Of a stretch of DNA of 64,000 bases, positions 18,815 to 58,815 are shown one piece after another (positions within the stretch are counted from its first letter, which is position 1; each line of letters starts with the position of its first letter). Below the pieces are notes generated by a model. It saw nothing but the letters and a program-made list of their open reading frames with translations. It had not been told where the DNA came from and did no database searches. Origin of the DNA: Lingula anatina (taxonomy: Eukaryota > Animalia > Brachiopoda); NCBI GenBank assembly GCA_051362555.1, contig CM120644.1, forward strand, positions 25,504,534 through 25,568,533. The letters run 5' to 3'. The position numbers were made by a program, and so were the translations under genes.

Positions 18815-21800
18815 ATGGAGAAAAATCCAAAGGATAATCTTTTTTCTAATGAAGGATTATTGGTAGATGAAAGAGGTGCAGATAAAGGACCAAGAAATGG
18901 AGTAGGTCAGGATTCATCTCAACCAGTAACAGAGGCCCTTCATTGTGACACAACCTACAAAATTGACCAAAATCATGAAAATATTGTTGAGAATTCAGCC
19001 AGCTTTCTGGTTGGTGGTCGTGGTGTTGTCAGGCCCCAGAGGTCAAGACTTCCAGGTGAGAGTTCTCTGCTTTAGGAACAGTGACAGGATATAGTTGTTT
19101 GTCCTATTAGTGTTTTTAATACATGTGCTATTTTCCACTTGTGTGATATGTAGTACAAGTACTGAAATGTTGTAATTAAATGGGGTGCTTGTTGTTTTTT
19201 AGTGCGAAGGTATCAGTTTGTAGAACCATCTTATCCACTGCGCCAGGCAGATGACATGACAGGTAGACTGCACCAGGCAGATGACATGACAGGCAGACTG
19301 CGCCAGGCAGATGACATGACAGGCAGACTGCGCCAGGCAGATGACATGACAGGCAGACTGCGCCAGGCAGATGACATGACAGGCAGACTGCGCCAGGCAG
19401 ATGACATGACAGGCAGACTGCGCCAGGCAGATGACATGACAGGCAGACTGCGCCAGGCAGATGACATGACAGGCAGACTGCGCCAGGCAGATGACATGAC
19501 AGGCAGACTGCGCCAGGCAGATGACATGACAGGCAGACTGCGCCAGGCAGATGACATGACAGGCAGACTGCGCCAGGCAGATGACATGACGGGCAGACTG
19601 CGCCAGGCAGATGACATGACGGGCAGACTGCGCCAGGCAGATCCCACTGAAGAGCTGACTGCAGTGGAGGCTGTTGAAAGCCGTAGTAGGGAACAGAAAT
19701 ATGTGAGGCATGGGGCTGCTCAGATGCAGGCTCATACTACAAGGAAACCAAGAAACACAGTTCAAACCAAAGGTGAATAACTGAAGTACTTATCTCTTGC
19801 TTAAAGCTATTAAAGTCATTGACATGGCAGAAAAATTTCACAACCTATGATGGAATTACCTTCATCATTTGTTATTTTAACTGTAATACAAAAATGTATG
19901 AAGTACTTCCTTTTTAATGCCATTGCTGTTGTTGAGATTTAATTGTGATTGTGCTTGGTTGTGATTGTGTTGATTTTGACTCAAATATTTGTCTGTCTGT
20001 CTGTCTGGTGCCATTGTTGATTCAACCCTTGGTGACTAATGATGCCAGTTTCAGCTTCCCATTTCCTGCTGAGTCCAGTAATATCTAATGTTAACTTGAC
20101 CAAGACAAAGGAACTCCAGAGAATAAATTCCTCCATGAGGATAGTAAAAAAGTAAGACCATCCTTGTCAAAGGTCTATTTGAACTTGTAAATCACCCATA
20201 CAATATATCATATTATCCTGAACCTATGTGTTGCATTCAGTAAAGTGTCTAGTATTCTTTTGTTCAAGACTAATTATATCCAGATGTCAAATAATTCCTT
20301 GAAGTAGATAAATTCCTCCCATCATAGCTGATAACTATAGCAGTCTTCAGTGCTCTGTTTGATGTGTATGATGAGGGTCACGGTGGTGGGAGTGAGGGGG
20401 GGGGGAGGGGCAGTCATCTTAGTCCATGTTAAATGAAATCATCAAATCACAGTAAAGTTTATTTAGATCTCACTGATGATGTGCATTGAAAATCTTGAAA
20501 ATCATGAATCACCGAGAATAATGACTTTGTATCACAAAGAATGTAGAATAAAAAGCTGCATTAACAGGTCACAGGAATAGGGTGCATCATGAGTTATTCA
20601 GAATAAAACAAACCTTTCATGTTTAAATTATTGTTTTTCTTTTTATCAAGAGCTTATAAAATACAAGTTGATACATACAGAGTTAATGAAACTGTTCTCT
20701 CAAACCTTTCATGCATCTCACAAAATATAATGTGGCTTTCACAGGTAACAAAATCACCCCATGGTCCCCTCTATGATGTACACTATGTATATGGTAGCAA
20801 TAATCTTTGTAGAAATGACCATCTAGGTTGACCATACATGATATTGTTTTAGATTGGGTAGATCAGTGCCGCCCTCACCTGGTCAAGTGGACACAATGGA
20901 CCAAGGTATCCAGGTGGACCTAGCTGACCTGTCCACTACAACACCACTGTCCTCTACACCTGTGGACATGAAGTTCACATCTCAGAGAAATGTAAGTTAG
21001 AATGCAGTGTGTTCTAAATCTCACTGAGAAGTTAAAATAGCTGAAATATTGGTAGCAGCCCAGTGTGTAGTTGTAGGATCAGTCCATCTCTGAGGGGTTT
21101 CTCACAAAATTGCTTTCAGCTTAAGCGGCTTAGATGTCTGGCACGCCTACTGAAGCTGCTCAATGATAATTAATTACCCCCTGCTTCAAAAACTGTGACA
21201 GACATCTAAACCGCTTCAGTTGATTGCAATTTAGCGAGAATCCCACTGGAGGTAGATCGATCCACAGTTAGTACAATGGAGTTTGGGAATCGTCCCATGA
21301 AAGTATTGGTATTTTTATTTGAAGGTGTCAACAGCCAAGTGTGTAGCCTATCATTTGAACACAGGCAGGAAGTGGCTATGGGGGCGGAGGTCAGGGCGGT
21401 CAGTTGGTAGAGATGACGTTAACCAGCAGAGGGCGCTGAGATCAGTGTGGTCAGGAGGGTCAGTGTCTGACTTCAGAGATGACGGGACAGAAAATGTGGT
21501 TGACATGTTCCTAGAAGACTTAGCCAGGACTGAGAACAGACAGTGAGTATCACAAGTCTACATACAACAACACACAGCCAGGACTGAGAACAGACAGTAA
21601 GTATCACAAGACTACATACAACAACACACAGCCAGGACTGAGAACAGACAGTGAGTATCACAAGTCTACATACAACAACACACAGCCAGGACTGAGAACA
21701 GACAGTGAGTATCACAAGACTACATACAACAACACACAGCCAGGACTGAGAACAGACAGTGAGTATCACAAGACTACATACAACAACACACAGCCAGGAC

Positions 21801-24800
21801 TGAGAACAGACAGTGAGTATCACAAGACTACATACAACAACACACAGCCAGGACTGAGAACAGACAGTGAGTATCACAAGACTACATACAACAACACACA
21901 GCCAGGACTGAGAACAGACAGTGAGTATCACAAGACTACATACAACAACACACAGCCAGGACTGAGAACAGACAGGGAGTATCACAAGACTACATACAAC
22001 AACACACAGCCAGGACTGAGAACAGACAGTGAGTATCACAAGACTACATACAACAACACACAGCCAGGACTGAGAACAGACAGTGAGTATCACAAGACTA
22101 CATACAACAACACACAGCCTGTTTAATAGAAAAGTAACTTATATTTTATATTTAATTCATTTATTTATATTTACTTAAACTATTATTAAAATATAAGTGA
22201 CTGATCCTATTCAAAATAAAACACACAGTTTACCTTCACACAGTAGAGCCTGCATGACTTGCATTGATATATTGAGTCGCCTTATAAACATAGATATCGC
22301 TTATTGTGATTTACTTGTAAAAAAAAAAAAAAAGCTACTAAATAACTTACACACTTTTAGTGCATGGCTGCTGTTTCATAGGGGCAATTTACAATATTTA
22401 TAACTATGACATCAACAACATTTGTGAACATATGTAAAAGTTTTATGATATTAGTCATATGTCTTAATTCCATTGTCTCAGGGCGCATTCCCATAGATTT
22501 TAGATCGATCTATCCCCGTGGGGAGTCTCACTCCATTACTGTCAGATAATCCGGCTTAAATGTCTTGGTGTTGTCTCCTTGCCATCAACACATCTCTGAT
22601 CATTGCCTTGAACTCCTGTCTGTAAGCCTTGCAATTCAAGCAGTACAGGAAGAAATTAGATGCGTGATTCATGTAAAACATGAGCACAAACAGTGTAAAC
22701 ATCATGGAGTTGACGGCTTTCTCCTGTGGTGTGGCTGCGGCATGGATGTCGTAGATTCCAGCCTGGATGAGGTTGAAGCCAATGGTCAGTATCCAATAGC
22801 AGACAGTGATGGATATCACCAGGCGGGTCATCTCTTTCATGTGCTCTTCCCCTCTCCGTGCCTCCACCATGACCTCCTCCTCTGTGTCCATGGGGTGTAG
22901 AGGGTCAGGAATACGGCCAGTCACCTGGACATCTATACTGACCAGTTTGTGACGGACTCTCATCTTCCACAGAAGCCATCCATTCAGTATAGGCAGTCCA
23001 ATGTAGGGGATCCCCCCATACAGCACCAGAACTATATATCTGTACACAGAGTAGTACTGACGGTCTGCTGCAGACAATACACTGTCTGTGCTGTGGAACA
23101 GGTTCCAACAGATACTAACACTGCCATTTTGATGCTCTAGAAATATCTGTGTAGTTAACACTGGAATGTTGAGGAAGAAAAAGAACAGTGCCAGGGATAG
23201 GATTGCTATTGCGGTTCTCTTCACAGAGAAATAGACAACATGTGCATCAGAGTAGTCAGCCTTGAGAAGTCTCTCTGTACTCAGCAGGATGAGAAGAGAC
23301 GAGGTGAGCTCAGGACCAAAATATTCTGCTGAGATTGTCACAAATTTACAGACACCCTCATTGGCTGTCATGGAAGGAATGTCAAGGTCATAGTTAGTCC
23401 AGTAGAAAAATCCACAAATTAGAACTAAGATATCTCCTAAGGCAACGCCCTTTAGTATCATGCAGCTAGGGGCCCAACGTAAAGGTTTTCGTGAGAAAAC
23501 AGCAAGTGCCAGGATGTTACAGCAAATACCAACGACTGAAATGAGAGGGCGGCCAATAATGCGTAGAGTGTAGGCAGCACTTTCCAGTGAGTTGTTGTAA
23601 GAATGGCCCAGATTTCTGCCTTCTATGGTCTGGGCCGTATATTCCAATGTGTTGTTGTAAGAGTGGTCTAAATTTGTGATATCTAAGCCATCCATGTCCT
23701 CTAGATGATACTTGGGACAACAGGTGCTATCATACCTGGGGGTATAGGGGAACAAATGCTGCAGACTTATTGGATTCCATATATAGTTGATTAAGTAGAG
23801 TTTGAAGAGGGAGTGTGTGTGTTTGTGTGCATGTGTATGTGTGTGTGTATGTGTGTGTAAGAGAGAGAGAGAGAGACAGAGAGAGCTATGCCACTGTAGC
23901 AGATTAAATCAAGACAGAAAAAAAAGAGCAATTTGAAACATCATGTTTTTAGAAGCGTCTGTTGGTTCATTAGTACAACTTATTTTTGTCCATAAGATGA
24001 TTATACTGTACAGTGGAGGTAACCTCTTTGCTGTGATATAATTACTATACAGTAGTTAACTTATTCCATAGCTATTACAGACTTTCTTTTACATAATTAT
24101 ATGTTTAAAAAAATGTTTCACAGTGCACAAATAATACTCACCTCTGCTAGATAGTGTCAGTAATGACTGCTTGTTCATATGACCTCAGTGTGGTGGGGAG
24201 AGTATATATCCTGTTATCTGGATTGGGTGATAACATGGTATGCTCTGGAACAGTGCAATGGAGAGAGTGATCGAGTGACTAGGGTTACCTTTATCTGTCC
24301 TGTCCGTGATAATTTTGTTATCAACCACATAAATTAGTGAGTCAAAGTTTTTTATACACAGTGCTGCATGCATGTTATATTTTATTCAACAGGTTATGTG
24401 AAGTAAATAAAGTTACATATTGTTACAATGCACAATTATAGACAATGTTCCAGGGAGAGACAGAGAGACCATTTCTGCTGTCCCTCAGTGAAAAACCACC
24501 CCATATAATAACCCTGTACTTATAGTTGATGAACTAGAAGACTGGTCTGAGAAGAGGATGCCATTCTGTAGTAATGTGCTGGCATTTTGACCAGTGATTT
24601 AATCACACCACAGTTTATACTTGTCTTCACTCATAGTTACATCATATTTTATAGTATTAAAAAAAGTTCAAGCTTTGGTTGTTGGATGTAAGGATAATTC
24701 TGATTCTGCCTTATAATACATATCTATCAGAAGCTGATAAAATATTTGATCACTATAATCCTCATTTTTAATGATAAAGTTAATAGAAGTGGTTCATGGT

Positions 24801-27800
24801 GTCCATTGTCAAAGATTCTGACTCTTCATTCAAGTTTGGCAATATTGAAACTCTTGGTAGGGGGCGTTGTGTGCCATTTTGAAAATTGACAATTTACTAA
24901 CCTAAATAATTGTCATGCATTCAAAAGTTGTCACATTCATGTTCAACATCAAATTATGCCTTGTAAAATATCTGATAATGAAAATATTTCAGATTCCCTC
25001 TATCTTTATATGAATCATGAAGTTATTTTCCATTGTCACTCTATAGAGGTCTGCCATTACTAGTGGCAATATATGGAGGAGGGTATTAGTGAGGACAGCC
25101 TTATATGAAGTTATTTCCATTTAACTCATGTCACTCTATAGACGTCTGTCATTATTAGTGGCATGGAGGAGGGTATTAGTGAGGATTGCCTTGGTTTTCT
25201 TTGTCTTCCTCATTATCATGTCCTTCAGCTCCTCTCTGTACACCTTACAACTGAGGCAGTAGAGGAAGAAATTGGAGGCGTGATTGAGATAAAACAACAG
25301 TACAAACACAGAGTAGATCATGGCATTGACTGCCTGTTTATGCTCAGTCTTTGCATTGTGGATCTTATACAGATGTCCTTGGATGATGTTGTAGCCCATT
25401 GTAAGGAGGCAGAATGATGCAGTGACCAGGATTACCAGCCGTGTCAGTTCACGCTTATCATGCTCCAACTTCTGTGTGTGTACCAGCAGCTCTTCGTCCT
25501 CATAGTGAGGGTGGTCTGGGTCTGGAATTCTCTCAAAGTTGTCTTCATTGATGCTACGGTACTGCTTACGTGTGATCCAGTACAGCCATCCATTGAGCAG
25601 CGGGAGACCCACATATGGGAGGAGGCCGTAGAGGGTGAGCACCAGGTACCTGTAGAACAGGAAGTAGTTCTTATCGGTGGAGTTGAGGGCCTCCTCCCCA
25701 TTGTGTTCCAATATGTTCCAGCAAACCATCCCCAGGCAGGGATCCTCCAGGTAGATATGTGCTGTCAACACGGGGATGTTCAGAAGAACCAATACCATAA
25801 CCAATACAACTATAGCCACAGCAGTCCTACATGGGGTGAAGTACTTCTCATGGAGGTCTCTGTGACCTGCCTTCAAGACTCTCTCAGCTCCTAGGAGGAG
25901 CAGCAGAAATACACTCAGCTCTGGTCCAAAGTATTCTATAAAGGTGACAGCTTTACATGTGAACTCATCATGGCTCAGAGTGGGTGTGAGCAGGTCATAT
26001 TCTGCCCAGTAGAAATAGCCATGGGTTAAAATGAAGATGTCTGCCACAGCTACTGCTGTCAGGATCATACAACTTGAGGTCCTACGGAAAGCTCTTTGTG
26101 AGAAGACAGCAATGGCCAGAAAGTTACAGATGATACCTATACTGTAGATGAGAGGGCGTCCCACCACACGCATGTCATAGGCTGCATGCACCAGTGTGTT
26201 GTTGGGAAAACGTTTCAAAATATGTGCAGTAGTGATAGCCTGGTTAGCCCATTCAACCTCACAGCTGACATTAGAAGAGTTGCCAAAATACATCCTCAGA
26301 ACAGGGCAGGTCTGAAAGAATATATGTAATATTAATATAGTATATTTACAGTGGATACTAGTGATAGCCTGGTTAGCTCACTCAACCTCACAGCTGACAT
26401 TAGAAGAGTTGCTAAAATAAATCCTCAGAACAGGGCAGGTCTGAAAGGATATATGTAATATAGTACATTTATGTTGATTTTTAAACAGATAAGTTAAATG
26501 AAAACAACAGATATATTCTTCAACAACTCTGGATATTCCCCAAATTTTCTGGTTAACTTGATATATTGCATCATCAATTTTGGGGAGAGACAGAAGATAG
26601 AATCAGCTTTCATGAACATTTTACTAAGGAAGCTGGTTAAATCTCTCAGTTTTGAGTACCCATCTGATCATTGAAGTGTATTAGGCCACATTACAGTACA
26701 GTACAATACAATACAATACAATACAATACAATACAATACAATACAATACAATACAATACAATACAGTAAATTTTATTTCATGTCGGGTATAAATTGAAGG
26801 GAAACATTAGCTTTGCAGCTATTTACTGACTGGGTAAGGACAAACATTTTTACAATAATGCAATATTTACACATGAAGTCTAGTAAGATAGTAAATGGGA
26901 AATCTATAGGTATTAAACTGATGATTGAGGGTATGGAATTCCTTTTGCGTTCCACGTGATTGGCCTTATTTTTTTAGCATGATGCGTTATTTTAGCTCAA
27001 TATTCTGCGTGAAATGTGATTCGGGAATTCTTGCATAGTGATATTGGTGATCGGCCTGAATATATCTTTCTGATTGGTGATTGAACTGTTTTAATTCTTG
27101 GTGATTAAAGCTCTGAGTTGCCTATGATTATAGATTGCAATGAAGAAATATAAATGCAGATATTTTATATTTTCAAGGGCTTTTTCATTGTTTTAAGTCA
27201 GCACAAAGAAAGATGTATTATTGAATAATTAGATGCAGGAAAAAAACTCATTTTCAGTATTTGGATGATAATAAAGGGTTACAATAGCTTAACATCTTAC
27301 TGGTTACTTTTTATAAAGCTGGCCCTCTTTTATGAATGGATTGTGTTACTTGCACACAATATATTAATGCATGTTTGCTCACTGTGTTACTGGGTCAGTA
27401 CATATAGCTTGATTACTCATTGTAGCATGAGATGTTATCCCTGTGTAAACAGACTGTATACATGTATAACCACAGAGGTGTCATCTCTAGTACCCTATAA
27501 TTATCTCTGTTAACTAAATAATTACTTTTGGTATAACAAAAGGCAACAAAAAGATAATTAATATGAAGCGTTCTTTCTGAGCTTAACTGTATACGTACTG
27601 TATATAACTATATTTAAGATCATACGTGTACTAGCTAGACTAGTGTACTATAGTATAGTGAAAGAACTGATTATGGTAGGCCTGGTAAAAAACACAGTAG
27701 ACTGACTGCTGTGTATAAAACAGAACAGTAAAGTCCAGTGATAATAGCACTTGTTGATAATATACTTGAGGAAGTGAACTAATGTTTACCTACTGTATGG

Positions 27801-30800
27801 TCCTTGTGCTGCTTAGAGTGGGCTTATCTCTATTATCTTCTGAACAATACACAGAGTTAAGATTGAAGTGTCCTTACACGCTGTCAATTATCTTATTTGT
27901 CTGTTAAATTAACTGCTGCACAATACCCCCTCAGAGTGCAGGCTGAAAGACGCTATGTACTTCCTTGTCTTTACTGTTTCTTTTTTGACTTCCTGTAAGT
28001 TTCCCAGTAAGACAGTAGGTCATGCTGCTCTGAGTCATGGCACACTGTGCAGTATAGTAAACACATACATGGAGAGAATATTGTTGTGACTGTACATGTG
28101 ATATAATTGGTTATTTTCTGAATACTTCTACATTGACTCTTGTGACTGCAAAGTACTTACACATAATCTAGGTCATTGATTCATGATCAGCTGTGTATTT
28201 AAGTTGACAGTTTCGACGTTTTGCCACAGCAGTTGCTTATTAGTATAGCTATAGGAGTGGGGTGCCTGGATCATTGAAACATGATTTTATTGTAAACTCC
28301 AATCACAAGGTTTTGTGGTCAGAGCTGAAAAGGTTGCACATGCTGGGGGCCATAAATTAGTATGCTAATCTCTTATCATGGTATAATGATTGATACGATG
28401 GGTATCAGCTAGTTTTCATTTGATATAAATGACGAAAGAGCGATCTGTAACTGTGGTATAGGGTGGCCTTGTGTGTGTAATGATATACAAGTTGGGGCAG
28501 GGGTACAGTTTTATAGTACAATAAGTCATTTTATACATCTCATCGTCGGGTCATTGTTTACTATAGCACTTTGTCGCTGTGCATTGCGTACCTTTTTGCA
28601 ATTGAGTCAGACTCAGTCAGTAATAGCTGGTGATTTTGTCTTTTTTGCGTTTCATTGACAATATTTTGGCTACCTAAGTAGGACAATGTGGCTCTTTGTT
28701 TTGAAATGACATTTCCATTGTTCCTTTGAACACGCAAAAGTCTTCACCAGGAAGCAGATAACACTTACGTCAATATACTTGCTTTGTAATAACCACCAAG
28801 GGGAAGAAACAAAAGCCTCACAATTAAGGCATCATCCTTCACACTGTAAAAGGTGTTAATTTCATGCTTCCCCAGCTAGAAAAGCAGTCCCCTTTGCAGT
28901 CTCCCTAGCAGTCCCCGCTTCCACAGCAGTCTCCTTTGCAGGTATCGTTAAGTTTGGAGGGAGTCCCCTTGGCAGTCTTAATTTGCATTTTTGGAACGCG
29001 CTGCCAGGGGGACTGCCAGGGCAGTCCCCCTGCCCTGGCAGGGCAGTCCCCCTGGCAGTCTGCTTGGCAGCCCCCTTAGCAGTCTGCTTGGCAGTCTCCC
29101 TGGCAGTCTTAATTTGCATATTTGGAACGCGCTGCCAGGGGGACTGCCAGGGCAGTCCCCCTGGCAGTCTGCTTTAGCAGTCTCCCTAGCAGTCTGCTTG
29201 GCAGTCCCCCTAGCAGTCTTCATTTGCATTTTTGGAACGCGCTGCCAGGGGGACTGCCAGGGCAGGCCCCCTTGCAGTCTGCTTGGCAGCCCCCCTTGCA
29301 GTCTGCTTGGCAGTCCCCCTGGCAGTCTGCTTGGCAGCCCCCCTAGCAGTCTGCTTGGCAGTCCCTCTCGCAGTCTACTCTGCAGTCTCCTTAGCAGTTT
29401 GCTTAGCAAAATAAAATTTGGCAAAATCTTTTTATCTATTTATTTATTTATTTATTTATTTATTTTTTTTTAAAGTCATATACATGTATATATTCTAATA
29501 ATAATTATATTTATCAAAAGGAATCTAGAAATAATCTTTCTCTCAAGCATGTGTGTAAGTTCAAATCTAAATACAAAATTTTCCCTTGATCACAAAATGT
29601 ATGTTATCTGATTCATTTATATCTAACATATTGGTTTATTTCTCTCCATACTATTTAGTTCAGTTAACTATTTTACATATATATTTTTCTACAAAGCCCA
29701 TATTAGCAGAGGGCTGGGAATTCTACTGTACGTTATTTAATCATTCCAAAAACTCAGTCACAGAATTCACTGGCCAGGATTCATACATCGATACAGATCG
29801 ACACATAAGAGCAATATTTCAAGTAATTTTAAAGGTTTTTTAACTAATGTGGGCAAGTTATACACTAAAACAATTTTTAAAGTGTACATACCAAAGGAAA
29901 AGAAGGCTCATTTCATTTAAATTTTGTATTTTTAACACATTGCATGATAATGAAAAGTACAAAGATCGATGTTTTAAAAGGTGTTATCCTCATCTGTGAA
30001 TTATTGTCTATATTCATGTCAAAAACTGCAAAGTTTGAAATAATATTTTAATTGACAAAACGACCAAAATGGTTAAATGCAAACCTTTTTCTAGCCTAAT
30101 AGCAATTTCAAGTACTTTTAAAAACCACAAACAGAATTCAAAGTGCTGGGCTAAAATTGAACACTTCCCAAAGCTCTATATGGATCCTGGTGCATCAGTA
30201 AACTATACATGTAGGAAAATACAAAACCAAAAGGACTTGCATGCTCACTTCTTATCCTGTCTCTGTCCTTCTTCATTTTTCTTTCTACATGCATTTCCTA
30301 AAATGTCTTCTAGCTTTTTCAATCCAGAAATCAATGTTTTCAGATTTCTTGCCTCTTCCTTAGAACATTTCTGACCTAGCTTCTGGCTTAGAGTTTTGAA
30401 TTAATTAGCTCAACGGTTCTGTACTACTGCCTGTGCTGTATAGTTATTTGACCTCATTGGGCAAGCTATAGGTGAACTGTTTATATCAAACTGACAGTTA
30501 AGATAAACATGCCCCTGGCTTGAAATGAATTTAGTTTTGAAAGTTACCAGTTAATTTTAATCACAAGTCCAACTTAAATTGATGCTAACTGTGAGGTTTA
30601 AAATTTATATATTATGCAATTGTATATTATCATAAGACTTCAATTATTTGTCTGATTTCAATGAAAATTATAGCAATAATAAAGGATATTTTCACAGCAT
30701 TATTAAAAAAATAAAAATCTAAAATATTTAATAAAAAATAAAAAATTTAAAAAATATAAAACTTCACTTAGTTAGTAATCAAAAGTTTAGCACATGTGCT

Positions 30801-45800: not shown

Positions 45801-48800
45801 TATGATATCTCTATGTTATCAGTTAGTTTATATTTACCCAGACTGTCCACAGTGTTGTGATAACATATGATATCTCTATGTTATCAGTTAGTTTATATTT
45901 ACCCAGACTGTCCACAGTGTTGTGATAACATATGATATCTCTATGTTATCAGTTAGTTTATATTTACCCAGACTGTCCACAGTGTTGTGATAACATATGA
46001 TATCTCTGTGTTATCAGTTAGTTTATATTTACCCAGACTGTCCACAGTGTTGTGATAACATATGATATCTCTCTGTTATCATTTAGTTTATATTTACCCA
46101 GACTGTCCACAGTGTTGTGATAACATATGATATCTCTATGTTATCAGTTAGTTTATATTTACCCAGACTGTCCACAGTGTTGTGATAACATATGATATCT
46201 CTGTGTTATCAGTTAGTTTATATTTACCCAGACTGTCCACAGTGTTGTGATAACATATGATATCTCTATGTTATCAGTTAGTTTATATTTACCCAGACTG
46301 TCCACAGTGTTGTGATAACATATGATATCTCTGTGTTATCAGTTAGTTTATATTTACCCAGACTGTCCACAGTGTTGTGATAACATATGATATCTCTGTG
46401 TTATCAGTTAGTTTATATTTACCCAGACTGTCCACAGTGTTGTGATAACATATGATATCTCTATGTTATCATTTAGTTTATATTTACCCAGACTGTCCAC
46501 AGTGTTGTGATAACATATGATATCTCTATGTTATCATTTAGTTTATATTTACCCAGACTGTCCACAGTGTTGTGATAACATATGATATCTCTATGTTATC
46601 AGTTAGTTTATATTTACCCAGACTGTCCACAGGTTTGTGATAACATATGGTATCTCTATGTTATCAGTTAGTATATATTTACCCAGACTGTCCACAGTGT
46701 TGTGATAACATATGATATCTCTGTGTTATCAGTTAGTTTATATTTACCCAGACTGTCCACAGTGTTGTGATAACATATGATATCTCTATGTTATCAGTTA
46801 GTTTATATTTACCCAGACTGTCCACAGTGTTGTGATAACATATGATATCTCTATGTTATCAGTTAGTTTATATTTACCCAGACTGTCCACAGTGTTGTGA
46901 TAACATGTTATCAGTTAGTTTATATTTACCCAGACTGTCCACAGTGTTGTGATAACATATGATATCTCTATGTTATCAGTTAGTTTATATTTACCCAGAC
47001 TGTCCACAGTGTTGTGATAACATATGATATCTCTATGTAATCAGTTAGTTTATATTTACCCAGACTGTCCACAGTGTTGTGATAACATATGATACCTCTA
47101 TGTTATCAGTTAGTATATATTTACCCAGACTGTCCACAGTGTTGTGATAACATATGATATCTCTATGTTATCAGTTAGTTTATATTTACCCAGACTGTCC
47201 ACAGTGTTGTGATAACATATGATATCTCTGTTATCAGTTAGTTTATATTTACCCAGACTGTCCACAGTGTTGTGATAACATATGATATGTCTATGTTATA
47301 GGTTAGTTTATATTTACCCAGACTGTCCACAGTGTTGTGATAACATATGATATCTCTATGTAATCAGTTAGTTTATATTTACCCAGACTGTCCACAGTGT
47401 TGTGATAACATATGATACCTCTATGTTATCAGTTAGTTTATATTTACCCAGACTGTCCACAGTGTTGTGATAACATATGATATCTCTATGTTATCAGTTA
47501 GTTTATATTTACCCAGACTGTCCACAGTGTTGTGATAACATATGATATCTCTATGTTATCATTTAGTTTATATTTACCCAGACTGTCCACAGTGTTGTGA
47601 TAACATATGGTATCCCTGTCATCTTCAGTACCATCAACTTTGCTGTGCCAGTCATCATCAACCAAGTAAGCTTCACTTTATGTATACATGTAAAATGTAG
47701 AAATACAATGGTAAAGGACATATATGTATTTTTATAGATGTTATATCCAAAGATATGCAAGTGTATATGCTTGTATGCATATATATATAACCATTCACAC
47801 TGACATAAATACCGAGATCATATTATCATATCAGTACAGTTATAAGTTATTATGTTTTTTTCCAATATTTAGAGACATATCTATTAAATATTGATATCTA
47901 AACTGCTCCATTTCAGCTGCCCAGGTGTGAGAACTACCTCAGTGGAAAGGATGTCCTCAGAGTAACAATCCTGAGAACTTTCATTCTGAGGATTTCAAAT
48001 CTGTTTGCTTTGATCATTTCTTTGTACAAGAAGACAACAGTAAAGAAAGTGAGTGCTGTTTGTGGACATGGATATATATAGTTGCCATTTTTGTATACCA
48101 GAAAAACATTTATTTTGTGTATTGCACATTCCATTGTGTACAGTCTGCTTTACAGTTAACAGTACATGTGCCATAAAATTAATTTTTCATATATTTACTC
48201 TGGAGTTAAGTTGAAATGACTTCCATATAGATGTAACACTGGTTTACATATAATATTTATTACATATAATGCTCTGACTTTCAACTGTGTCAAGTAAGAC
48301 ACACCTAAGACACTGCTGTCTCAGCTAACACACTGCTGTCTCAACTAACACACTGCTATTTCAACTAACACATTGCTGTCTCAACTAACACATTGCTGTC
48401 TCAACTAACACACTGCTGTCTCAACTAACACACTGCTATTTCAACTAACACATTGCTGTCTCAACTAACACATTGCTGTCTCAACTAACACACTGCTGTC
48501 TCAACTAACACACTGCTTCATTCCAGGGTGGACCAGAGTACTGTGTGGGGACTCTGATAGGCCAGGAGCTATATAAACTGGTCATAGTGGATACATTGCT
48601 ACAGGTGACACATTGTTGTTATATTTACAATGTAGTAAATGAATAAATTTGACAAAAAAGGAGTGGAGGGATATTTGTTCAGTTTTATTAAACCACTAGG
48701 AAATGCATATTTCTGTCTACAAACCAAACAAAATAGGATCCTCTTTAGGAGATTAACAACAAACTTAGTGCTTGGATGTCATCAGAGTGAGCTAGGTCAT

Positions 48801-51800
48801 GCTACTTGAAACTTGAGGATTTAAATTATTTGTATCAGATTCATGATTTCACCCAGCAATGAGGTCATTGTGTTCTATTTTCTACCACCCAGTCCAGTTT
48901 ACAGTTCCTCTACTCAAGATGTACATATCTGTGGACAAGGGAGAAAAAGGAATTCCTGATGTCCTCTGCCATATTAGTCTTAGTTTACAGACAGGCTTTG
49001 ATTTGGGTAAGTCAGTGGATGTCTCCTTCATTTGGGTAAGCTGGATAATACTTTCAAAGTATTCTGCTGAAGTATATTTGCAGACTTCCTTAAGACTTGC
49101 ATTATACTTGAAAAATAGCAAATAACTTTTATGATAGCTTGTGTAAACCTGGATAAAGAAGACCCCCAACTGTCACGTCTCCCTGATACAGAAAGTTGTT
49201 AGCAGACAGAATTTGATGTTGGTGGATTACATTGTCTTAAAAAAAAAACAAGATATGACAGTGTTGGGTCAATGTGGTATAAAAAATGAGTTAATGCATG
49301 CTGCTTTTAAAAAAGTTCAACACATTTTTTAAATTAGTTTCTGTATTTGATTATTTTTTTTCTCCAGACTGGCACCCTGGCCTGTCCTGTACTCCCCCTG
49401 GTGGGCAGTATGTCAGTCTTGCTGTTCTTTGCAGTGAACTACAGCACAGTGGTGACCAGCTGTAAACCTCCTGAAAACAGATGGAACCAGTCTAGACACA
49501 GTACTCTGTTTATAGGTCTACTTACTGTCACCTTAATGATACTACTGGTACCTGTGGCTGTTATCATTGGCAGGTTAGTATATATATATATACAGTCTAG
49601 ACACAGTACACTGTTCATAGGTCTACTTATACTGTCACCTTACTGATACTACTGGTACCTGTGGCTATTATCATTGGCAGGTTAGTATATATATATATAT
49701 ATACAGTCTAGACACAGTACACTGTTCATAGGTCTACTTATACTGTCACCTTACTGATACTACTGGTACCTGTGGCTGTTATCATTGGCAGGTTAGTATA
49801 TATATATATATATATATAGAAACCCCATATGGTAAGGATATAGTTGTCTTTGGGGAAGATTAACTCTATGAATAGCAAGCAAGTCCTTGTGTTTGAAGGT
49901 ATTAGAATGTAGTTTTGTGATTTTTTGGATAGGTTTATAATTGCTACATGTGTGTATTTGTTATTCCAGCAAAGACGTTGTGAACATTGGTCAGACTAAT
50001 GTGGCAGGGAGATCATGTGGACCATTTGGCCTCCACAGCCCCATAGGGACCTTAACCAGCCTTCAGTCCAGGCTCCCAGAGTGGCTGGCAGACATGTTCC
50101 ACTGGCTGTCATCAGCTACAGTCCTGTTGCCAGCAGGGTTTGTTCTTCTGTAAGTATCCATGTCATCAGCTACAGTCCTGTTGCCAGCAGGGTTTGTTCT
50201 TCTGTAAGTAACCATGTCATCAGCTACAGTCCTGTTGCCAGCAGGGTTTGTTCTTCTGTAAGTAACCATGTCATCAGCTACAGTCCCACTGCCAGCAGGG
50301 TTTGTTCTTCTGTAAGTAACCATGTCATCAGCTACAGTCCTACTGCCAGCAGGGTTTGTTCTTCTGTAAGTAACCATGTCATCACCTACAGTCCTACTGC
50401 CAGCAGGGTTTGTTCTTCTGTAAGTAACCATGTCATCAGCTACAGTCCTACTGCCAGCAGGCTTTGTTCTTCTGTAAGTAACCATGTCATCAGCTACAGT
50501 CCTACTGCCAGCAGGCTTTGTTCTTCTGTAAGTAACCATGTCATCAGCTACAGTCCTGTTGCCAGCAGGATTTGTTCTTCTGTAAGTAACCATGTCATCA
50601 GCTACAGTCCTACTGCCAGCAGGCTTTGTTCTTCTGTAAGTAACCATGTCATCAGCTACAGTCCTACTGCCAGCAGGCTTTGTTCTTCTGTAAGTAACCA
50701 TGTCATCAGCTACAGTCCTGTTGCCAGCAGGATTTGTTCTTCTGTAAGTAACCATGTCATCAGCTACAGTCCTACTGCCAGCAGGGTTTGTTCTTCTGTA
50801 TCCATGTCATTTGTCACCTTTACTGTTAGCAGGGTTTGTTCATTGCACAGTATTTAGGTATTTACTTTGTTGATATGTAAACCTTTAACTAATGAAAACT
50901 ATCAACATTTTTATCATTGTCAGTGCTATGATTTTCTACCAGTATATCATTGTAACCAGTTTAATGTGTATTAACAAGCAAGTTTTTATTGTCATTGTCA
51001 GTGCTTTGATCTTCTACCAGTATATCCTTGTGACCAGTTTAATGTGTATTAACAAGCAAGTTTTTATTGTCATTGTCAGTGCTATGATTTTCTACCAGTA
51101 TATCCGTGTGACCAGTTTAATGTGTATTAACAAGCAAGTTTTTATTCTCATTATCAGTGCTGTGAATTTCTACCAGTATATCCTTGTGATCAATTTAATG
51201 TGTATTAACAAGCAAGTTTTTATTCTCATTGTCAGTGCTGTGAACTTCTGCCAGTATATCTGTGTGACCAGTTTAATGTGTATTAACAAGCAAGTTTATA
51301 TGATTGTCAGTGCTGTGATCTTCTACCAGTATATCCTTGTGACCAGTTTAATGTGTATTAACAAGCAAGTTTTTATTCTCATTGTCAGTGCTGTGAACTT
51401 CTACCAGTATATCCTTGTGATCAGTTTAATGTGTATTAACAAGCATGTTTTTATTATTGTCAGTGCTGTGATCTTCTACCAGTATATCCGTGTGAAGGAA
51501 CAGAAGAAGAAAGTAGAGAAGGCTTACCAGGCTTTACATATGGTAAAATTGTGCCATTATTCCCACATTAAAGAATACTTCAATCAGTTTAATAATAAGT
51601 ATTAGGTACAACAAACCAATGTCAAACCAGACAAATAATTCCAATTGGCTCTTTTTTTTCTTTTTGCAGGTTATATTTGCAGCATTCATACTGCTACATT
51701 TAACACAAATTCAGACTTTTGATGCTCTAATTCAATGACTTTCCAATGGCTTTTTTTAAACATAAATCATGACAACTTATTGTCATTTATAGTTGCATCT

Positions 51801-52199
51801 GATAACTTTAAAGTGAATTATTTTAAAAAAATGTACATTTTATTTACTAATGTTGAATGAGGAACTACAGTGAAACATGATTTTTTTTATTTAAAATGAT
51901 GTAGAAAAAAGTTATAATCCCCTCCTGTGAACTAACGTTTTTTCATGTTCAAAACTAAAAACTTTGAAATAATTTTTGACAAACTACTTAGTGATCAAAT
52001 AAGTTCTTCTCAAGGACAAACATAAAATGTGAGCTTTTTCAAGGCTTTAAACAATTTAAATTTCTTTTTAAATACTTGATATAAGTTTTCAAGATTTTAT
52101 AAACCCTGATAACTTACATCTGCTTTCTTGTATTTCTAGGAGAGAGATGACAACAAAGAACTGGTGACCAAGCTACATCTGATGTCAGACCCAAGTTAA
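18815..52199 (+). CDS. TMC: Transmembrane channel-like (TMC family) protein, 20 coding exons, ~999 aa
   Basis: Exons 18815-19055, 19203-19772, 20055-20151, 20853-20991, 21325-21542, 38995-39082, 39429-39501, 40229-40401, 41146-41276, 43322-43469, 44827-44930, 45637-45721, 47582-47665, 47917-48048, 48527-48604, 48893-49006, 49368-49573, 49970-50149, 51464-51542, 52140-52199; total 3000 nt, open throughout. TMC motifs: IEGHFGSGLVSFFVFTRW, SWVFYGGY..YNLALAY, SWDHSI, ENY, CVGTLIGQELYKLVIVD, EF..AILVLVYRQALIW, CKPP, CGPF. Linking exons 1-5 rests on phase compatibility only; extra exons in intron 5 are possible. Confidence 0.88.
19237..19642 (+). repeat. In-frame coding 30-bp tandem repeat (LRQADDMTGR, ~13.5 copies) in TMC exon 2
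   Basis: Unit CTGCGCCAGGCAGATGACATGACAGGCAGA, near-identical copies. Confidence 0.92.
21094..21246. mobile_element. Small palindromic MITE-like element
   Basis: GGGGTTTCTCACAAAATTGC..GCGGCTTAGATGTCTG versus CAGACATCTAAACCGC..GCAATTTAGCGAGAATCCCAC (diverged inverted arms). Confidence 0.55.
21523..22118. repeat. 54-bp minisatellite (11 copies) duplicating the TMC exon 5 donor
   Basis: Unit GCCAGGACTGAGAACAGACA|GTGAGTATCACAAGACTACATACAACAACACACA. Confidence 0.93.
22481..22564. mobile_element. Truncated copy of the 7252-7465 MITE overlapping the GPCR-1 stop codon
   Basis: GGGCGCATTCCCATAGATTTTAGATCGATCTAT...GATAATCCGGCTTAAATGTC nearly identical to 7252-7335. Confidence 0.88.
22556..23695 (-). 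CDS. Rhodopsin-class (family A) GPCR, FMRFamide/peptide-receptor-like orphan; nested GPCR-1
   Basis: Seven hydrophobic segments; GICCNILAL, ALGDIL, TM3 Cys and STERLL, GGIPY, NHASNFFLYC. The ORF is open to 23755 (TTG); first ATG at 23695. Possible upstream 5' exon donor near 24141. Confidence 0.92.
   Translation of the reverse strand: MDGLDITNLDHSYNNTLEYTAQTIEGRNLGHSYNNSLESAAYTLRIIGRPLISVVGICCNILALAVFSRKPLRWAPSCMILKGVALGDILVLICGFFYWTNYDLDIPSMTANEGVCKFVTISAEYFGPELTSSLLILLSTERLLKADYSDAHVVYFSVKRTAIAILSLALFFFFLNIPVLTTQIFLEHQNGSVSICWNLFHSTDSVLSAADRQYYSVYRYIVLVLYGGIPYIGLPILNGWLLWKMRVRHKLVSIDVQVTGRIPDPLHPMDTEEEVMVEARRGEEHMKEMTRLVISITVCYWILTIGFNLIQAGIYDIHAAATPQEKAVNSMMFTLFVLMFYMNHASNFFLYCLNCKAYRQEFKAMIRDVLMARRQHQDI
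25136..26293 (-). CDS. Rhodopsin-class GPCR, paralog of GPCR-1; nested GPCR-2 (385 aa)
   Basis: 7TM; GIICNFLAI, AVADIF, GAERVL, GLLPY, NHASNFFLYC; N-glycosylation sequons in the N-terminus; acceptor TTTCAG just upstream of the ATG. Confidence 0.94.
   Translation of the reverse strand: MYFGNSSNVSCEVEWANQAITTAHILKRFPNNTLVHAAYDMRVVGRPLIYSIGIICNFLAIAVFSQRAFRRTSSCMILTAVAVADIFILTHGYFYWAEYDLLTPTLSHDEFTCKAVTFIEYFGPELSVFLLLLLGAERVLKAGHRDLHEKYFTPCRTAVAIVVLVMVLVLLNIPVLTAHIYLEDPCLGMVCWNILEHNGEEALNSTDKNYFLFYRYLVLTLYGLLPYVGLPLLNGWLYWITRKQYRSINEDNFERIPDPDHPHYEDEELLVHTQKLEHDKRELTRLVILVTASFCLLTMGYNIIQGHLYKIHNAKTEHKQAVNAMIYSVFVLLFYLNHASNFFLYCLSCKVYREELKDMIMRKTKKTKAILTNTLLHATNNDRRL
26695..26900 (-). repeat. 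Probable retroposon 3' end with AATAAA and (ATTGT)n tail; related copy at ~36585-36790
   Basis: (TACAA)n run followed by TTTTATTTCATGTCGGGTATAAATTGAA...ATTTACACATGAA.TCTAGTAAGAT at both sites. Confidence 0.55.
28871..31350. mobile_element. Non-autonomous EnSpm/CACTA(CMC)-like DNA transposon A
   Basis: TIRs CCCAGCTAGAA / TTCTAGCTGGG; 2-bp TSD TC; subterminal arrays of GGCAGTCCCCC and GCAGCCTCCTTTGCAGTC repeats at 28880-29405 and 30898-31310. Confidence 0.8.
32682..35800. mobile_element. Non-autonomous EnSpm/CACTA(CMC)-like DNA transposon B
   Basis: TIRs CCCAGATAGCAAGCATACGTTGGGCCAACG / CGTTGGCCCAACGTATGCTTGCTATCTGGG; 2-bp TSD TT; subterminal CGTTGGGCCAA repeats at both ends. Confidence 0.85.
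37518..38649 (-). pseudogene. Rhodopsin-class GPCR paralog (nested GPCR-3) with one frameshift near 38345: pseudogene, null allele or assembly error
   Basis: TM1-2 in ORF 38260-38649 (VGRPTIFSLGIIFNILAL, AMADIL), TM3-7 in ORF 37518-38396 (YFAPEFS, SIERVL, NHASNFFLYC). Adding one CA to CTCACACAGT restores PLLTHSVFLC, colinear with PTLSHDEFTC of GPCR-2. Confidence 0.85.
39068..39250. repeat. Degenerate 24-bp repeat duplicating the TMC exon 6 donor
   Basis: Repeated CATGACYTSAAG|GTGGGTGAGAGA. Confidence 0.75.
39680..39995. repeat. ~17-bp tandem repeat (CCACTCCMCTGTGTGAC) in TMC intron 7
   Basis: Directly visible; source of several spurious ORFs. Confidence 0.85.
40451..41250. repeat. 114-bp (6 copies) plus shorter repeats duplicating the acceptor and most of TMC exon 9
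   Basis: Acceptor TTATAG ends at 40575, 40689, 40803, 40917, 41031, 41145; only the last copy continues into unique exon sequence. Confidence 0.93.
41405..42335 (-). mobile_element. 5'-truncated RTE-clade non-LTR retrotransposon (RT C-terminal region)
   Basis: ORF 41567-42292 with LNHLRFADD, GLKMNTSKTKVM, YIYLGQ, VLPAITYGSETW, KWRWAGHV, RKRGRP; (GAT)n 3' tail at 41405-41423. Confidence 0.92.
42335..43370. repeat. 81/78-bp minisatellite (13 copies) duplicating the TMC exon 10 acceptor
   Basis: ATACTGTATATATTTCAG|ACTGGCCCATGCTGTAGAACAAGAGAG repeated; open in the TMC frame. Confidence 0.93.
43457..44526. repeat. 36-bp minisatellite (~30 copies) duplicating the TMC exon 10 donor
   Basis: CTCTATCAGG|GTAAGWCAGGTCTGGGGTGGTCTATA repeated. 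Confidence 0.93.
44915..45530. repeat. ~52-bp minisatellite derived from the TMC exon 11 donor
   Basis: Repeated TTGGCTGGTTACT-(CTGTGAGT/GTTTGAGT)-ATATCATACTGTATATCCTG; the GT is mutated in most distal copies. Confidence 0.88.
45745..47610. repeat. 65-bp minisatellite (~28 copies) duplicating the TMC exon 13 acceptor; fills almost all of intron 12
   Basis: TTAGTTTATATTTACCCAG|ACTGTCCACAGTGTTGTGATAACATATG repeated. Confidence 0.93.
48309..48517. repeat. 20-bp repeat (~10 copies) containing a CTAAC branch-point-like motif, immediately upstream of TMC exon 15
   Basis: Unit TCAACTAACACACTGCTGTC ending just before TTCATTCCAG|. Confidence 0.85.
49487..49818. repeat. ~107-111-bp repeat (3 copies) duplicating the 3' end and donor of TMC exon 17
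   Basis: ATCATTGGCAG|GTTAGTATATA with GT at 49574, 49681 and 49792. Confidence 0.9.
50107..50802. repeat. 54-bp minisatellite (13 copies) duplicating the TMC exon 18 donor
   Basis: GTCATCAGCTACAGTCCT..TGCCAGCAGGGTTTGTTCTTCT|GTAAGTAACCAT repeated. Confidence 0.93.
50905..51495. repeat. 78/75-bp minisatellite (8 copies) duplicating the TMC exon 19 acceptor
   Basis: TTTTATT..CATTGTCAG|TGCTGTGATCTTCTACCAGTATATCC repeated; open in the TMC frame. Confidence 0.92.
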
Positions 52200-52208
52200 C
52201 CGTAGACC

Positions 52209-54793: not shown

Positions 54794-54924
54794 GGTGGAA
54801 AGTTAAATGTGAAGAAAACATAAAAAAATGTTCAATTTATTGAAAATAAACAGAGCAACTGTTGGAACATGTTGGGCTGTTGCACAAATTAAGTTAAGAA
54901 TGTTTTCTTTTTCTTTTTAATTAA

Positions 54925-55544: not shown

Positions 55545-55874
55545 TTAACAGCAGGAAAACTGTATATATTAAGACATTTATATAAAATAATTTACATGAG
55601 GAGTGTTACAATAATGACATTTAAAAAAGAACAAGTCTTGTAAATGTCTGGACACAATGCTCAGGATGCTTGTGATCATTTCATCTAGAAATCAAAAAAC
55701 CAATACTTTTCATAATAACATATTTTCCCTTAGGTGACATTAAATCAGTACCAAATTCTGCTTTGTATAAGTGGTGTATTTTTAACAAAATGTTGTCCAG
55801 TCCAAGTTGCTACCTCAGTTTATCTATATAAATGGTGTATAATTTAACAAAATTATGTCATCCACTGCCGGCTG

Positions 55875-58138
55875 CTACCTCAGTTTATCTATATAAATGT
55901 TGTAAATTTTCACAAAATGATCACTTCCTCCACTGGCCAGCTGTAAAATGTTGTCCTTGACGTCTGATTCATGTGCCAGACCTGGACGTCCTCTGAACTG
56001 GAGTTTTTTCACTGTCAGGTGATGGGCAATACTGGGCATGGGTCAAGGAGAAAGATACTGAAACTAAATAAATCACCTTTACTGCACTGATCTCAACAGA
56101 AAGCACGAAGTAAGCCTTTCATCAGTAGAATATTGTGATAAATTTGATTCTTTATTTATTCATGAAGTGTGGTAGCAAATTTTTAATTGATATACAGATA
56201 ACCTAATGGTCTTTAAGATTTTTATTTGCACAGACCAATTGAACAAAGCATATTAAAGTTACCCAATTTGGTTCAACTTGGAAATTAATGAGAAACTACT
56301 TTATTTTAACATCAATTATTGTGTGCCAGTGATTTATTTCAACTTGACACCATATTCTTCCAAAACCCTGAACTGCAGACAAATTATATCATCCTCAACA
56401 ATCACACAATCATCTCAACTATCACAATCAAGACCAGCTTTGGTCTACTAAAGGATACTCATTTCCCAGGACAGCAGCAGGCGTCCAGCAGGAATCCTGA
56501 TCACCTGGCTGCCACTTGTACAAGTGAATAGAACCAGTCTCCAAACCACACGCTAGGAGGTATCTGAAATATCCATGGCACCATGGGTAATGGGAAAATA
56601 ACTTCATTTTGGTCAAAAATAGATTTTCCTGGAGAAAATGACAATTTTGGTTTTCCAGAAAAAAATTGTGTAAATCATCATTTTGGTGTTAAAATAAAAT
56701 TTATTATGTCCCTGTGAGTTGTTTACAATGTGTTTATTGTAAAATATGGCTCTCAAACATGAATCATGAATCTGTAATATTGTATGTTTCAGACAGAGAG
56801 TCCTAATTAAACTAATAAATCTAAGAAGAGAGCATTTTTGTATCAGACTTGTGATTTACTCTCTTGAAAGATAAACAAAGAAGTTTTTTCAAGACATCAT
56901 CATTTGAAAACTGCTCCAAGGCTTTATAACAGGCAGCTTGTATGACCATGCTAAATGACTTGGAGGCATTTGTCAAATACCATTCCAAATAAACTTATTA
57001 TATGCATGTACTGTTGTTGTCAAATATAATCTTTAATGTAGAGAGGCACACGTACTGGTTTTCTGACACCAAAATAGGAGCAAAGGCCACAGCTGTCACA
57101 GGTTCTGCTAGTTCCAGGGGTGGTGACAAGGCTCCATATCCATCTCCTGTTCTACCCCACACTATTACCTAAAACATAGAACACATCATTAATAATATCC
57201 ATCTCCTGTTCTACCTCACACTATTACCTAAAACATAGAACACATCATTAATAATATCCATCTCCTGTTCTACCCCACACTATTACCTAAAACATAGAAC
57301 ACATCATTAATAATATCCATCTCCTGTTCTACCTCACACTATTACCTAAAACATAGAACACATCATTAACAATATCCATCTCCTGTTCTACCCCACACTA
57401 TTACCTAAAACATAGAACACATCATTAACAATATCCATCTCCTGTTCTACCTCACACTATTACCTAAAACATAGAACACATCATTAATAATATCCATCTC
57501 CTGTTCTACCTCACACTATTACCTAAAACATAGAACACATCATTAACAATATCCATCTCCTGTTCTACCTCACACTATTACCTAAAACATAGAACACATC
57601 ATTAACAATATCCATCTCCTGTTCTACCCCACACTATTACCTAAAACATAGAACACATCATTAATAATATCCATCTCCTGTTCTACCCCACACTATTACC
57701 TAAAACATAGAACACATCATTAACAATATCCATCTCCTGTTCTACCCCACACTATTACCTAAAACATAGAACACATCATTAACAATATCCATCTCCTGTT
57801 CTACCTCACACTATTACCTAAAACATAGAACACATCATTAACAATATCCATCTCCTGTTCTACCCACACTATCCCCTAAAACCTGAACATTGAAATCCCG
57901 ACTTGTTGCTAAGGTATCATTACCTTGATACTGCTGGTTAAAGATTAAGCAGAGGGCTTCGTTTTATGCAATTTAATTTACAGAATTGATCAATGAAAGA
58001 GACATAAAGCTAGCACCTTCTTATCCCTGGATGACGTGGCGAAAAACTCATCATCATGTGACCAACCACATGACCAGATGATGCGGGTGTGGATGCTAGT
58101 TTTCTTGTTGGTTGCTGCCACCTGGTGGAATGCAGGAT
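55875..58138 (-). CDS. ELP2: Elongator complex protein 2 (WD40), last four coding exons; the gene continues beyond the window end
   Basis: Exons 58138-58017 ([25 protein letters not shown]), 57168-57056 ([13 protein letters not shown]), 56563-56459 ([15 protein letters not shown]), 56031-55875 ([26 protein letters not shown]..stop); phases consistent. The preceding exon end FLLTVSRDRTWSVY occurs as repeat copies at 58573-58815 and 63262-63672. Confidence 0.92.
56032..56458 (-). other. U12-type (minor spliceosome) GT-AG intron, last intron of ELP2
   Basis: 5' splice site GA|GTATCCTTT; branch site TTCTCCTTGAC ~10 nt upstream of CCCAG|; no polypyrimidine tract. Confidence 0.88.
57135..57885. 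repeat. 59-bp minisatellite (~13 copies) duplicating an ELP2 acceptor and exon start
   Basis: Minus strand CTATGTTTTAG|GTAATAGTGTGRGGTAGAACAGGAGATGGATAT repeated. Confidence 0.92.
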
Positions 58139-58364
58139 CTGACAGAAAGCAGATTGAGTTAATAGAATAGATATAGATCAAATATTTATATGTTACAGCT
58201 GTTTTTTTCCTTACTCTGCATATCTGGCACATCAACGATTCAAAGACATTTTAACACAATAATTTAAATGCATCCAAAAAGGAAAAGTAACTTTTTTTCA
58301 AACATAACTGGCCTTATCTTTTAACTGTCTTTAATTTTAAATTCATTTCTGTTGGCGCTGTTAA

Positions 58365-58815
58365 TACCTGCCCTGTCCTCCATCTTAACTCAACATACAT
58401 ACCAACACCTATCCTGTCCTCCATCTTAACTCAACATATATACCAACACCTACCCTGTCCTCCATCTGAACTCAACATATATACCAACACCTATCCTGTC
58501 CTCCATCTTAACTCAACATATATACCAACACCTACCCTGTCCTCCATCTTAACTCAACATATATACCAACACCTACCCTGTCCTCCATCTTGTTGTCTAT
58601 ACACAGACCATGTCCTGTCTCTAGATACAGTGAGTATAAACATACGTACTAATACCTACCCTGTCCTCCATCTTGTTGTCTGTACACAGACCATGTCCTG
58701 TCTCTAGATACAGTGAGTAGAAACATATGTACTAATACCTACCCTGTCCTCCATCTTGTTGTCTATACACAGACCATGTCCTGTCTCTAGATACAGTCAG
58801 TAGAAACATATGTAA
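58365..58815. repeat. ~42-bp and 83-bp repeats duplicating an ELP2 exon end and donor
   Basis: Minus strand ...CAAGATGGAGGACAGG|GTAGGT; the 83-bp unit encodes MFLLTVSRDRTWSVYRQQDGGQ. Confidence 0.9.

What the first reader, a model, noticed from the sequence alone, without database searches (positions are those of the whole stretch)
21523..58815. Splice-site-anchored minisatellites at many exon boundaries
Seen: at least 14 arrays with unrelated sequences (units 20-114 bp, 2-30 copies) are each made of a splice site plus its flanking exon and intron bases. In TMC they cover the donors of exons 5, 6, 10, 11, 17, 18, the acceptors of exons 9, 10, 11, 13, 19 and the branch point before exon 15; in ELP2 an acceptor and a donor; also the Cys-rich gene donor (11308-12165) and the GPCR-2 acceptor (~26355-26460). 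The arrays extend into the intron, and in the TMC model the copy adjoining unique exon sequence gives the intact protein. The protease gene has none. Inference: either a mutational process favours exon-intron junctions (splicing/transcription-coupled lesions, nucleosome or GC edges), or random duplication is filtered by selection. Either way the spliceosome must ignore dozens of near-identical sites, and this is raw material for intron gain and new exons. I cannot tell whether this has been described for this lineage.
Basis: partly seen in the sequence, partly recalled or inferred. Interest (0 to 1): 0.82.

Follow-up and report, generated by a model that had tools for sequence, protein, structure and literature searches.

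The report
Brachiopod splice-junction "mirage" minisatellites
In this stretch of a lamp-shell (Lingula) genome, 11 of 36 modelled splice junctions of one gene and several in its neighbours are copied head-to-tail into the intron; this repeat type is already known from lancelets, humans and chickens and is likely spliced out harmlessly, but here one end of each copy sits about 10-47 bases inside the intron, which likely points to a DNA-repair hotspot at exon edges.

Summary
The arrays are real. The window is Lingula. Junction overlap exceeds chance even with wholly exonic placements excluded (10 of 12 vs 3.3 expected, P 4e-5; P 0.013 under the harshest null; gene chosen post hoc). Other individuals' contigs hold five of six arrays checked; the 111-bp one appears absent from one. 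RNA from other individuals uses the exon-adjacent site (ELP2 acceptor, 29 of 29 listed reads), but those animals may lack the arrays. This is the published 'mirage' (amphioxus) / 'exon stuttering' (chicken) / human F7 VNTR type. I found no paper on it in Lingula, but this scan noted it before in other genomes and at least three times in this one. New here, post hoc: the intron part of the unit is nearly constant (median 26 nt), while the exon part sets unit length (rho 0.9; P 0.002-0.008). That favours a lesion fixed just inside the intron over selection alone.

The parts
7003..7251 (-).
   Evidence: three-exon frame of 740 aa
11303..12164 (-). 67-bp x12.9 donor array, Cys-rich gene exon 1 (43 exon + 24 intron)
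   Evidence: model only, no RNA
18815..52199 (+). TMC-like gene, 19 modelled coding exons, 927 aa
   Evidence: PF07810 on the 99% identical protein P0002
21522..22119 (+). 54-bp x11.1 donor array (junction 21542)
   Evidence: model only
26239..26462 (-). two-copy duplication (spacing 129) of a putative GPCR 5' acceptor
   Evidence: acceptor untested
39067..39232 (+). 24-bp donor-derived array (junction 39082), diverged from the real site
40459..41249 (+). 63-bp x2.3 and 114-bp x6 acceptor arrays (junction 41145); the 7 decoys carry GTGAGT near their start where the coding copy has GCGAGT
42335..43370 (+). 81-bp x12.9 acceptor array (junction 43321); all 12 decoys keep an open frame; abuts a LINE fragment
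43459..44529 (+). 36-bp x29.8 donor array (junction 43469)
44705..44834 (+). 44/47-bp x2.8 acceptor array (junction 44826)
44916..45529 (+). 47-bp x13.1 donor-derived array (junction 44930); GT lost in all 12 extra copies
45741..47614 (+). 65-bp x29.1 acceptor array (junction 47581); the intron would be about 51-55 nt without it
   Evidence: exon start agrees with P0002
48305..48517 (+). 20-bp x10.6 array with a branch-point-like CTAAC, ending 9 nt before the acceptor at 48527; does not span the junction
49488..49814 (+). 107/111-bp x3 donor array (junction 49573); likely absent in run X6
50107..50800 (+). 54-bp x12.9 donor array (junction 50149)
50914..51495 (+). 75/78-bp x7.5 acceptor array (junction 51463); all 7 decoys keep an open frame
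55860..58138 (-). last four exons of ELP2
   Evidence: RNA joints; match to Elongator complex protein 2, E 1.9e-11
57136..57889 (-). 59-bp x12.8 acceptor array of ELP2 (26 intron + 33 exon); unit reads AG|GTAATA
58366..58814 (-). 41-bp x5.5 and 83-bp x3.1 ELP2 donor-derived arrays, detached from the real exon, abutting an element end with a hairpin and CTAG
63055..63669 (-). second copy of the ELP2 donor arrays (41-bp x5.5, 83-bp x5.1) within a near-identical duplicate

Best explanation
These are 'mirage'-type minisatellites: short tandem duplications across exon-intron junctions, likely seeded by a DNA lesion about 10-47 bases inside the intron, then likely amplified by ordinary minisatellite turnover and likely tolerated because splicing uses the copy next to the complete exon. 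Shown: units join an exon edge to an intron edge; they hit junctions more than uniform placement predicts; the intron part is narrow while the exon part sets unit length; the exon-adjacent site is the one seen in RNA. Inferred: (1) the seed is a fill-in or flap-ligation duplication whose fixed end lies at a landmark flanking exons on both sides (nucleosome edge or the GC-to-AT step); donor and acceptor arrays behave as mirror images, which fits a DNA/chromatin landmark better than a transcript-directional process; (2) copy number then changes by slippage and unequal exchange; (3) exon definition picks the terminal copy, since only it pairs with the exon's other splice site, and nonsense-mediated decay would remove most errors (90 of 110 TMC decoys break the frame or add a stop). 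No function is proposed.
For: Enrichment: 12 of 18 arrays in the whole TMC span vs 1.45 expected; 10 of 12 in the exon-dense part vs 3.3 (P 3.7e-5), 4.0 with the LINE removed (P 2.8e-4), 6.1 with unique intron capped at 150 nt (P 0.013). Breakpoints: intron side 10-43 nt, SD 10; exon side 8-104 nt, SD 29; side-flip P 0.008 (n=14), 0.002 (n=18); bounded null P 0.002; rho(unit, exon side) 0.90, rho(unit, intron side) -0.20. GC falls from 0.46 to about 0.3 at 19 array-free TMC junctions. RNA: 29 of 29 listed reads across the ELP2 array intron use the exon-adjacent acceptor; 4 reads use the first donor of the 111-bp array. Turnover: 83-bp array has 3.1 and 5.1 copies in two near-identical duplicates; 111-bp array likely absent in X6. 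Precedent: PMC3087553, PMC3902484, PMC1557585, PMC12954441; Rad27/Okazaki flap origin of tandem duplications in yeast, PMC13167724 (passages).
Against: One window, gene picked because it is rich in arrays; under the harshest null, dropping one array gives P 0.06. The breakpoint test is post hoc, n=14-18, partly hand-curated, and the acceptor-only side-flip test is not significant (P 0.07). Intron-side length does not track exon length significantly (rho -0.34, P 0.25), as a centred nucleosome would predict. Microhomology could not be measured reliably. The RNA animals differ from the window (six fixed differences in one ELP2 exon) and may lack the arrays; joints under 3 reads are not listed; X19 has reads inside the 59-bp array and no listed joint across it. 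No chromatin data.
Confidence: 0.6

Rival explanations
1. Duplications arise preferentially anywhere in exonic (GC-richer, nucleosomal) DNA; selection removes most wholly coding ones, leaving junction-spanning, in-frame and 3'-UTR arrays.
For: Two wholly coding arrays are both multiples of three (30 and 81 bp); two arrays start within 30 nt behind modelled stop codons (52209, 6150).
Against: It predicts variable intron-side lengths; they are narrow.
Confidence: 0.2
2. Uniformly random duplication in a gene with short ancestral introns, filtered by selection only.
For: Collapsed introns are short (about 51-290 nt for most array-bearing ones); with introns capped at 150 nt, 6.1 of 12 hits are expected.
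Against: 10 of 12 observed; P 0.013 to 4e-5 across nulls that already exclude wholly exonic placements; narrow intron side.
Confidence: 0.07
3. Splicing- or transcription-coupled lesions (R-loops, polymerase pausing, spliceosome footprint) fix the breakpoint relative to the splice site itself.
For: Donor intron sides are tight (median 24, SD 7); acceptor sides (median 32) and the CTAAC array fall in the branch-point zone.
Against: A polymerase-position model (recalled, not tested) would fix the downstream side, the exon side for acceptors, which is the variable side here. No germline expression data.
Confidence: 0.12
4. Assembly artefact.
For: Raw long reads not checked; the 111-bp array appears absent from X6; the ELP2 duplicate is near-identical.
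Against: Copies differ in shared, structured ways; summed contig depth is raised over four arrays in X6 and contigs break with tripled depth at the 59-bp array in X1.
Confidence: 0.01

Closest known systems
Amphioxus 'mirage' minisatellites (Adh3, globins BflGb6/BflGb9, troponin C, PGBD5); PMC3087553 and PMC3902484, passages read; the Adh paper PMC117041 was not held
   Same: Tandem units spanning an exon-intron boundary, at both 5' and 3' ends, many keeping AG/GT, variable in copy number, normal splicing.
   Different: Different phylum; 11 of 36 junctions in one gene; units 24-129 bp; a narrow intron-side length, which I did not see in the passages read.
Chicken 'exon stuttering' (PMC12954441; passages and second part of the Discussion read)
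   Same: Exon edge plus splice site copied through the adjacent intron; highly length-variable; mechanism open.
   Different: 236 introns in 115 genes, mostly on GC-rich dot chromosomes; this window is about 30-50% GC.
Human F7 intron 7 37-bp VNTR (PMC1557585; abstract only)
   Same: First unit spans the junction; downstream identical donors are functional but silent; the most upstream is chosen.
   Different: A single donor-side locus; here both sides and many loci.
Microhomology-mediated tandem duplication, raised by loss of Rad27/FEN1 (PMC13167724; passages)
   Same: A candidate seeding route for short tandem duplications.
   Different: The main text has no occurrence of 'intron' or 'splice'; microhomology was not reliably measurable here.

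Membership tests
mirage minisatellite | head-to-tail unit that spans an exon-intron boundary of the host gene | tested here: met
   junctions under arrays backed by RNA for 49573 and 57168 and by database proteins for 47581 and 50149; the rest are model only
mirage minisatellite | many but not all copies keep GT or AG | tested here: met
   110 of 124 extra TMC copies
mirage minisatellite | normal splicing uses the authentic site | tested here: inconclusive
   29 of 29 and 4 of 4 listed reads use it, but the RNA animals may lack the arrays and joints under 3 reads are hidden
mirage minisatellite | length instability between alleles | tested here: inconclusive
   111-bp array likely absent in X6, inferred from contig pieces; 3.1 vs 5.1 copies in a local duplicate
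mirage minisatellite | somatic instability | not testable with these tools
   needs single-molecule data from one animal
exon stuttering (chicken) | concentration on GC-rich, high-recombination chromosomes | not testable with these tools
   no genome held; window is not GC-rich
intron gain by tandem duplication | the duplicated segment itself is spliced out as a new intron | tested here: not met
   all arrays lie within introns that have their own opposite splice site; no new intron among listed joints
recursive (ratchet) splice site | AG|GT site used as an intermediate | tested here: inconclusive
   ELP2 unit has the motif; no joint to an inner copy listed in poly(A)-type RNA, where intermediates would be rare

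The most novel reading that the evidence does not exclude
Lingula has a genome-wide mutational process that anchors one end of tandem duplications at a fixed distance (about 25-30 nt) inside introns on both sides of exons, making thousands of mirage arrays a footprint of germline chromatin or spliceosome position on DNA and a natural library of identical competing splice sites; some arrays are not ignored: open-frame ones (81 and 78 bp) yield decay-proof longer isoforms, and AG|GT ones (ELP2) are removed stepwise by recursive splicing.
Probability: 0.3. Interest if true: 0.75.

Novelty: new member of a known kind. Interest (0 to 1): 0.42.

Why it matters
The origin of mirage/exon-stuttering repeats is stated as unclear in the amphioxus and chicken papers read. 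A genome where about a third of one gene's junctions carry them gives enough cases to test it, and the fixed intron-side breakpoint is a concrete prediction. The arrays also offer natural tests of splice-site choice among identical sites on the acceptor side, make up about 61% of the length of TMC introns 5-18, and may explain fragmented gene models (the two database TMC proteins are 172 and 230 aa).

Tried and rejected
No whole genome is held, so no genome-wide test. No indexed RNA holder was listed for 47600-52200; raw RNA runs of the same species label were laid instead. TMC reads were too few (5, 16, 16 laid) to test most arrays, and TMC 38901-47500 has no read evidence. Methylation proxy: CpG observed/expected is low in TMC (0.06-0.24) and ELP2 (0.27) and high in the array-free protease (0.89), but also high in the Cys-rich gene (0.56-0.86) that has two arrays, so it does not separate cases. 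Automated microhomology calls were unreliable; splitting overlaps equally gave a stronger breakpoint result, which I replaced by the unsplit, weaker one. The protease exon model was not frame-intact and served only for approximate junction positions. TMC exon 6 (16 nt) and the exon 2-4 acceptors are chosen by frame only. A target-site-duplication origin at the LINE was checked by eye and not found. No Pfam match for the Cys-rich exon. Literature: 9 searches and word searches in the main text of two Lingula genome papers (PMC4595640, PMC13121700) found no mention for Lingula; their supplements were not read, and subscription papers are not searchable.
Full report
Identity. A TMC exon (49368-49571) is 99% identical to two proteins named Lingula anatina TMC-like (2 hits among 140 candidates), a brachiopod. 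The neighbour on the minus strand matches Elongator complex protein 2. The window also holds a subtilase, three GPCR-like frames nested in a 17-kb TMC intron (one scanned) and a LINE fragment.

Observation. TRF lists the arrays at the stated places. A 19-exon TMC model using the exon-adjacent copy at each array gives 927 aa with one stop. Exons 12-17 agree by eye with P0001/P0002, two junctions have RNA, and exons 1-11 are model only. Arrays span 11 of 36 internal junctions, and one with a branch-point-like motif ends 9 nt before a twelfth. 110 of 124 extra TMC copies keep GT or AG; the 47-bp array keeps none. Arrays make up about 61% of introns 5-18. No array with period 15 or more and score 100 or more touches the protease gene.

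Chance. Each array was collapsed to one unit and placed uniformly, with wholly exonic placements excluded to mimic selection. Whole TMC span: 12 of 18 arrays span or derive from a junction vs 1.45 expected. Exon-dense part: 10 of 12 vs 3.3 (P 3.7e-5; 9 of 12, P 4.4e-4). Removing the LINE: 4.0 expected, P 2.8e-4. Capping unique intron at 150 nt: 6.1 expected, P 0.013, or 0.06 with one array fewer. The gene was chosen post hoc, so these are not genome estimates.

Reality and polymorphism. In DNA run X6, summed contig depth reaches 314-847 over the 65-, 20-, 54- and 78-bp arrays against about 60-180 in flanks. Over the 111-bp array it is 21-87, and a 566-letter contig aligns 49194-49592 with its remaining 170 letters apparently resuming near 49820; the joint row was dropped by the tool, so absence of the triplication is inferred. 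At 49511 and 49536 the window's coding copy differs from its own decoys, from X6 and from the RNA reads, which hints at exchange between alleles. In X1, contigs break at the 59-bp array and a 70-letter piece has depth 143 vs 49. Raw long reads were not available.

Splicing. ELP2: 8 + 21 reads in two runs join 58017 to the exon-adjacent acceptor at 57168; no joint to the other 12 copies was listed (threshold 3 reads), and depth in these runs is 0 over 57188-57659. The third run has no listed joint there and depth 1-3 inside the array. TMC: 4 reads use the first donor of the 111-bp array. The RNA animals are not the window's and may lack the arrays. Of 110 TMC decoys, 90 would break the frame or add a stop; 20 would not, including all decoys of the 81- and 78-bp arrays. 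The ELP2 unit reads AG|GTAATA, so joining to any copy would regenerate a donor-like site; its use is untested. The real ELP2 donor exon lies outside the window: 28 reads continue at 58634 into sequence not found here. The donor arrays abut an element end with a hairpin and CTAG (Helitron-like, recalled) and recur in a near-identical duplicate.

Mechanistic clue. Across 14 arrays the intron part of the unit is 10-43 nt (median 25.5, SD 10) and the exon part 8-104 nt (SD 29); unit length follows the exon part (rho 0.90), not the intron part (-0.20). Side-flip P 0.008; with 18 arrays 0.002; bounded null 0.002; donors alone 0.006; acceptors alone 0.07. The test was devised after seeing the data and some values were hand-curated. 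A mirror-image pattern at donors and acceptors suggests a landmark flanking exons in DNA, such as the GC step or a nucleosome edge, with flap or fill-in duplication as a candidate chemistry (PMC13167724, passages). These steps are inferred.

Known systems. Amphioxus mirages (PMC3087553, PMC3902484; passages), human F7 VNTR (PMC1557585; abstract) and chicken exon stuttering (PMC12954441; passages and part of the Discussion) describe the same structure, silent decoys and length variation, with the origin left open. Nine searches and word searches in two Lingula genome papers found no report for Lingula. This scan's own unchecked notes record the pattern in other genomes and at least three times in this genome; a word search for the breakpoint pattern found none.

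Verdict. Real and non-random in this window; a new, dense member of a known kind; likely neutral. Interest 0.42, carried mainly by the testable breakpoint pattern.

Noticed in passing
   Followed up: yes
window 19237-19642 and 12843-13172: Wholly coding in-frame arrays: 30 bp x13.5 in TMC exon 2 and 81 bp x4.1 in the Cys-rich gene.
   Followed up: partly
window 52209-54201 and 6008-6150: Arrays beginning within 30 nt behind the modelled stop codons of TMC (35 bp x57) and the Cys-rich gene (37 bp x3.9).
   Followed up: no
window 21543-38994: 17-kb TMC intron holds three antisense GPCR-like open frames and inverted-repeat elements with subterminal arrays.
   Followed up: partly
window 58250-59145 and 62939-64000: Near-identical duplicate (4 mismatches in 896) inside an ELP2 intron, each copy with donor arrays and a hairpin+CTAG element end; could be a real duplication or a haplotype join.
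   Followed up: partly
window 41146-41160: Only the coding copy of the 114-bp unit has GCGAGT; all 7 decoys have a consensus donor GTGAGT 7-10 nt after their acceptor, forming potential micro-exons.
   Followed up: partly
window 58029-58046: RNA runs X13 and X16 differ from the window and from X1 at six sites in 18 bases of an ELP2 exon; run X19 is mostly 90-95% alike, suggesting diverged populations under one species label.
   Followed up: no
window 14112-14976, 16753-16895, 39686-39950, 54438-54793: Arrays with no modelled junction nearby.
   Followed up: no
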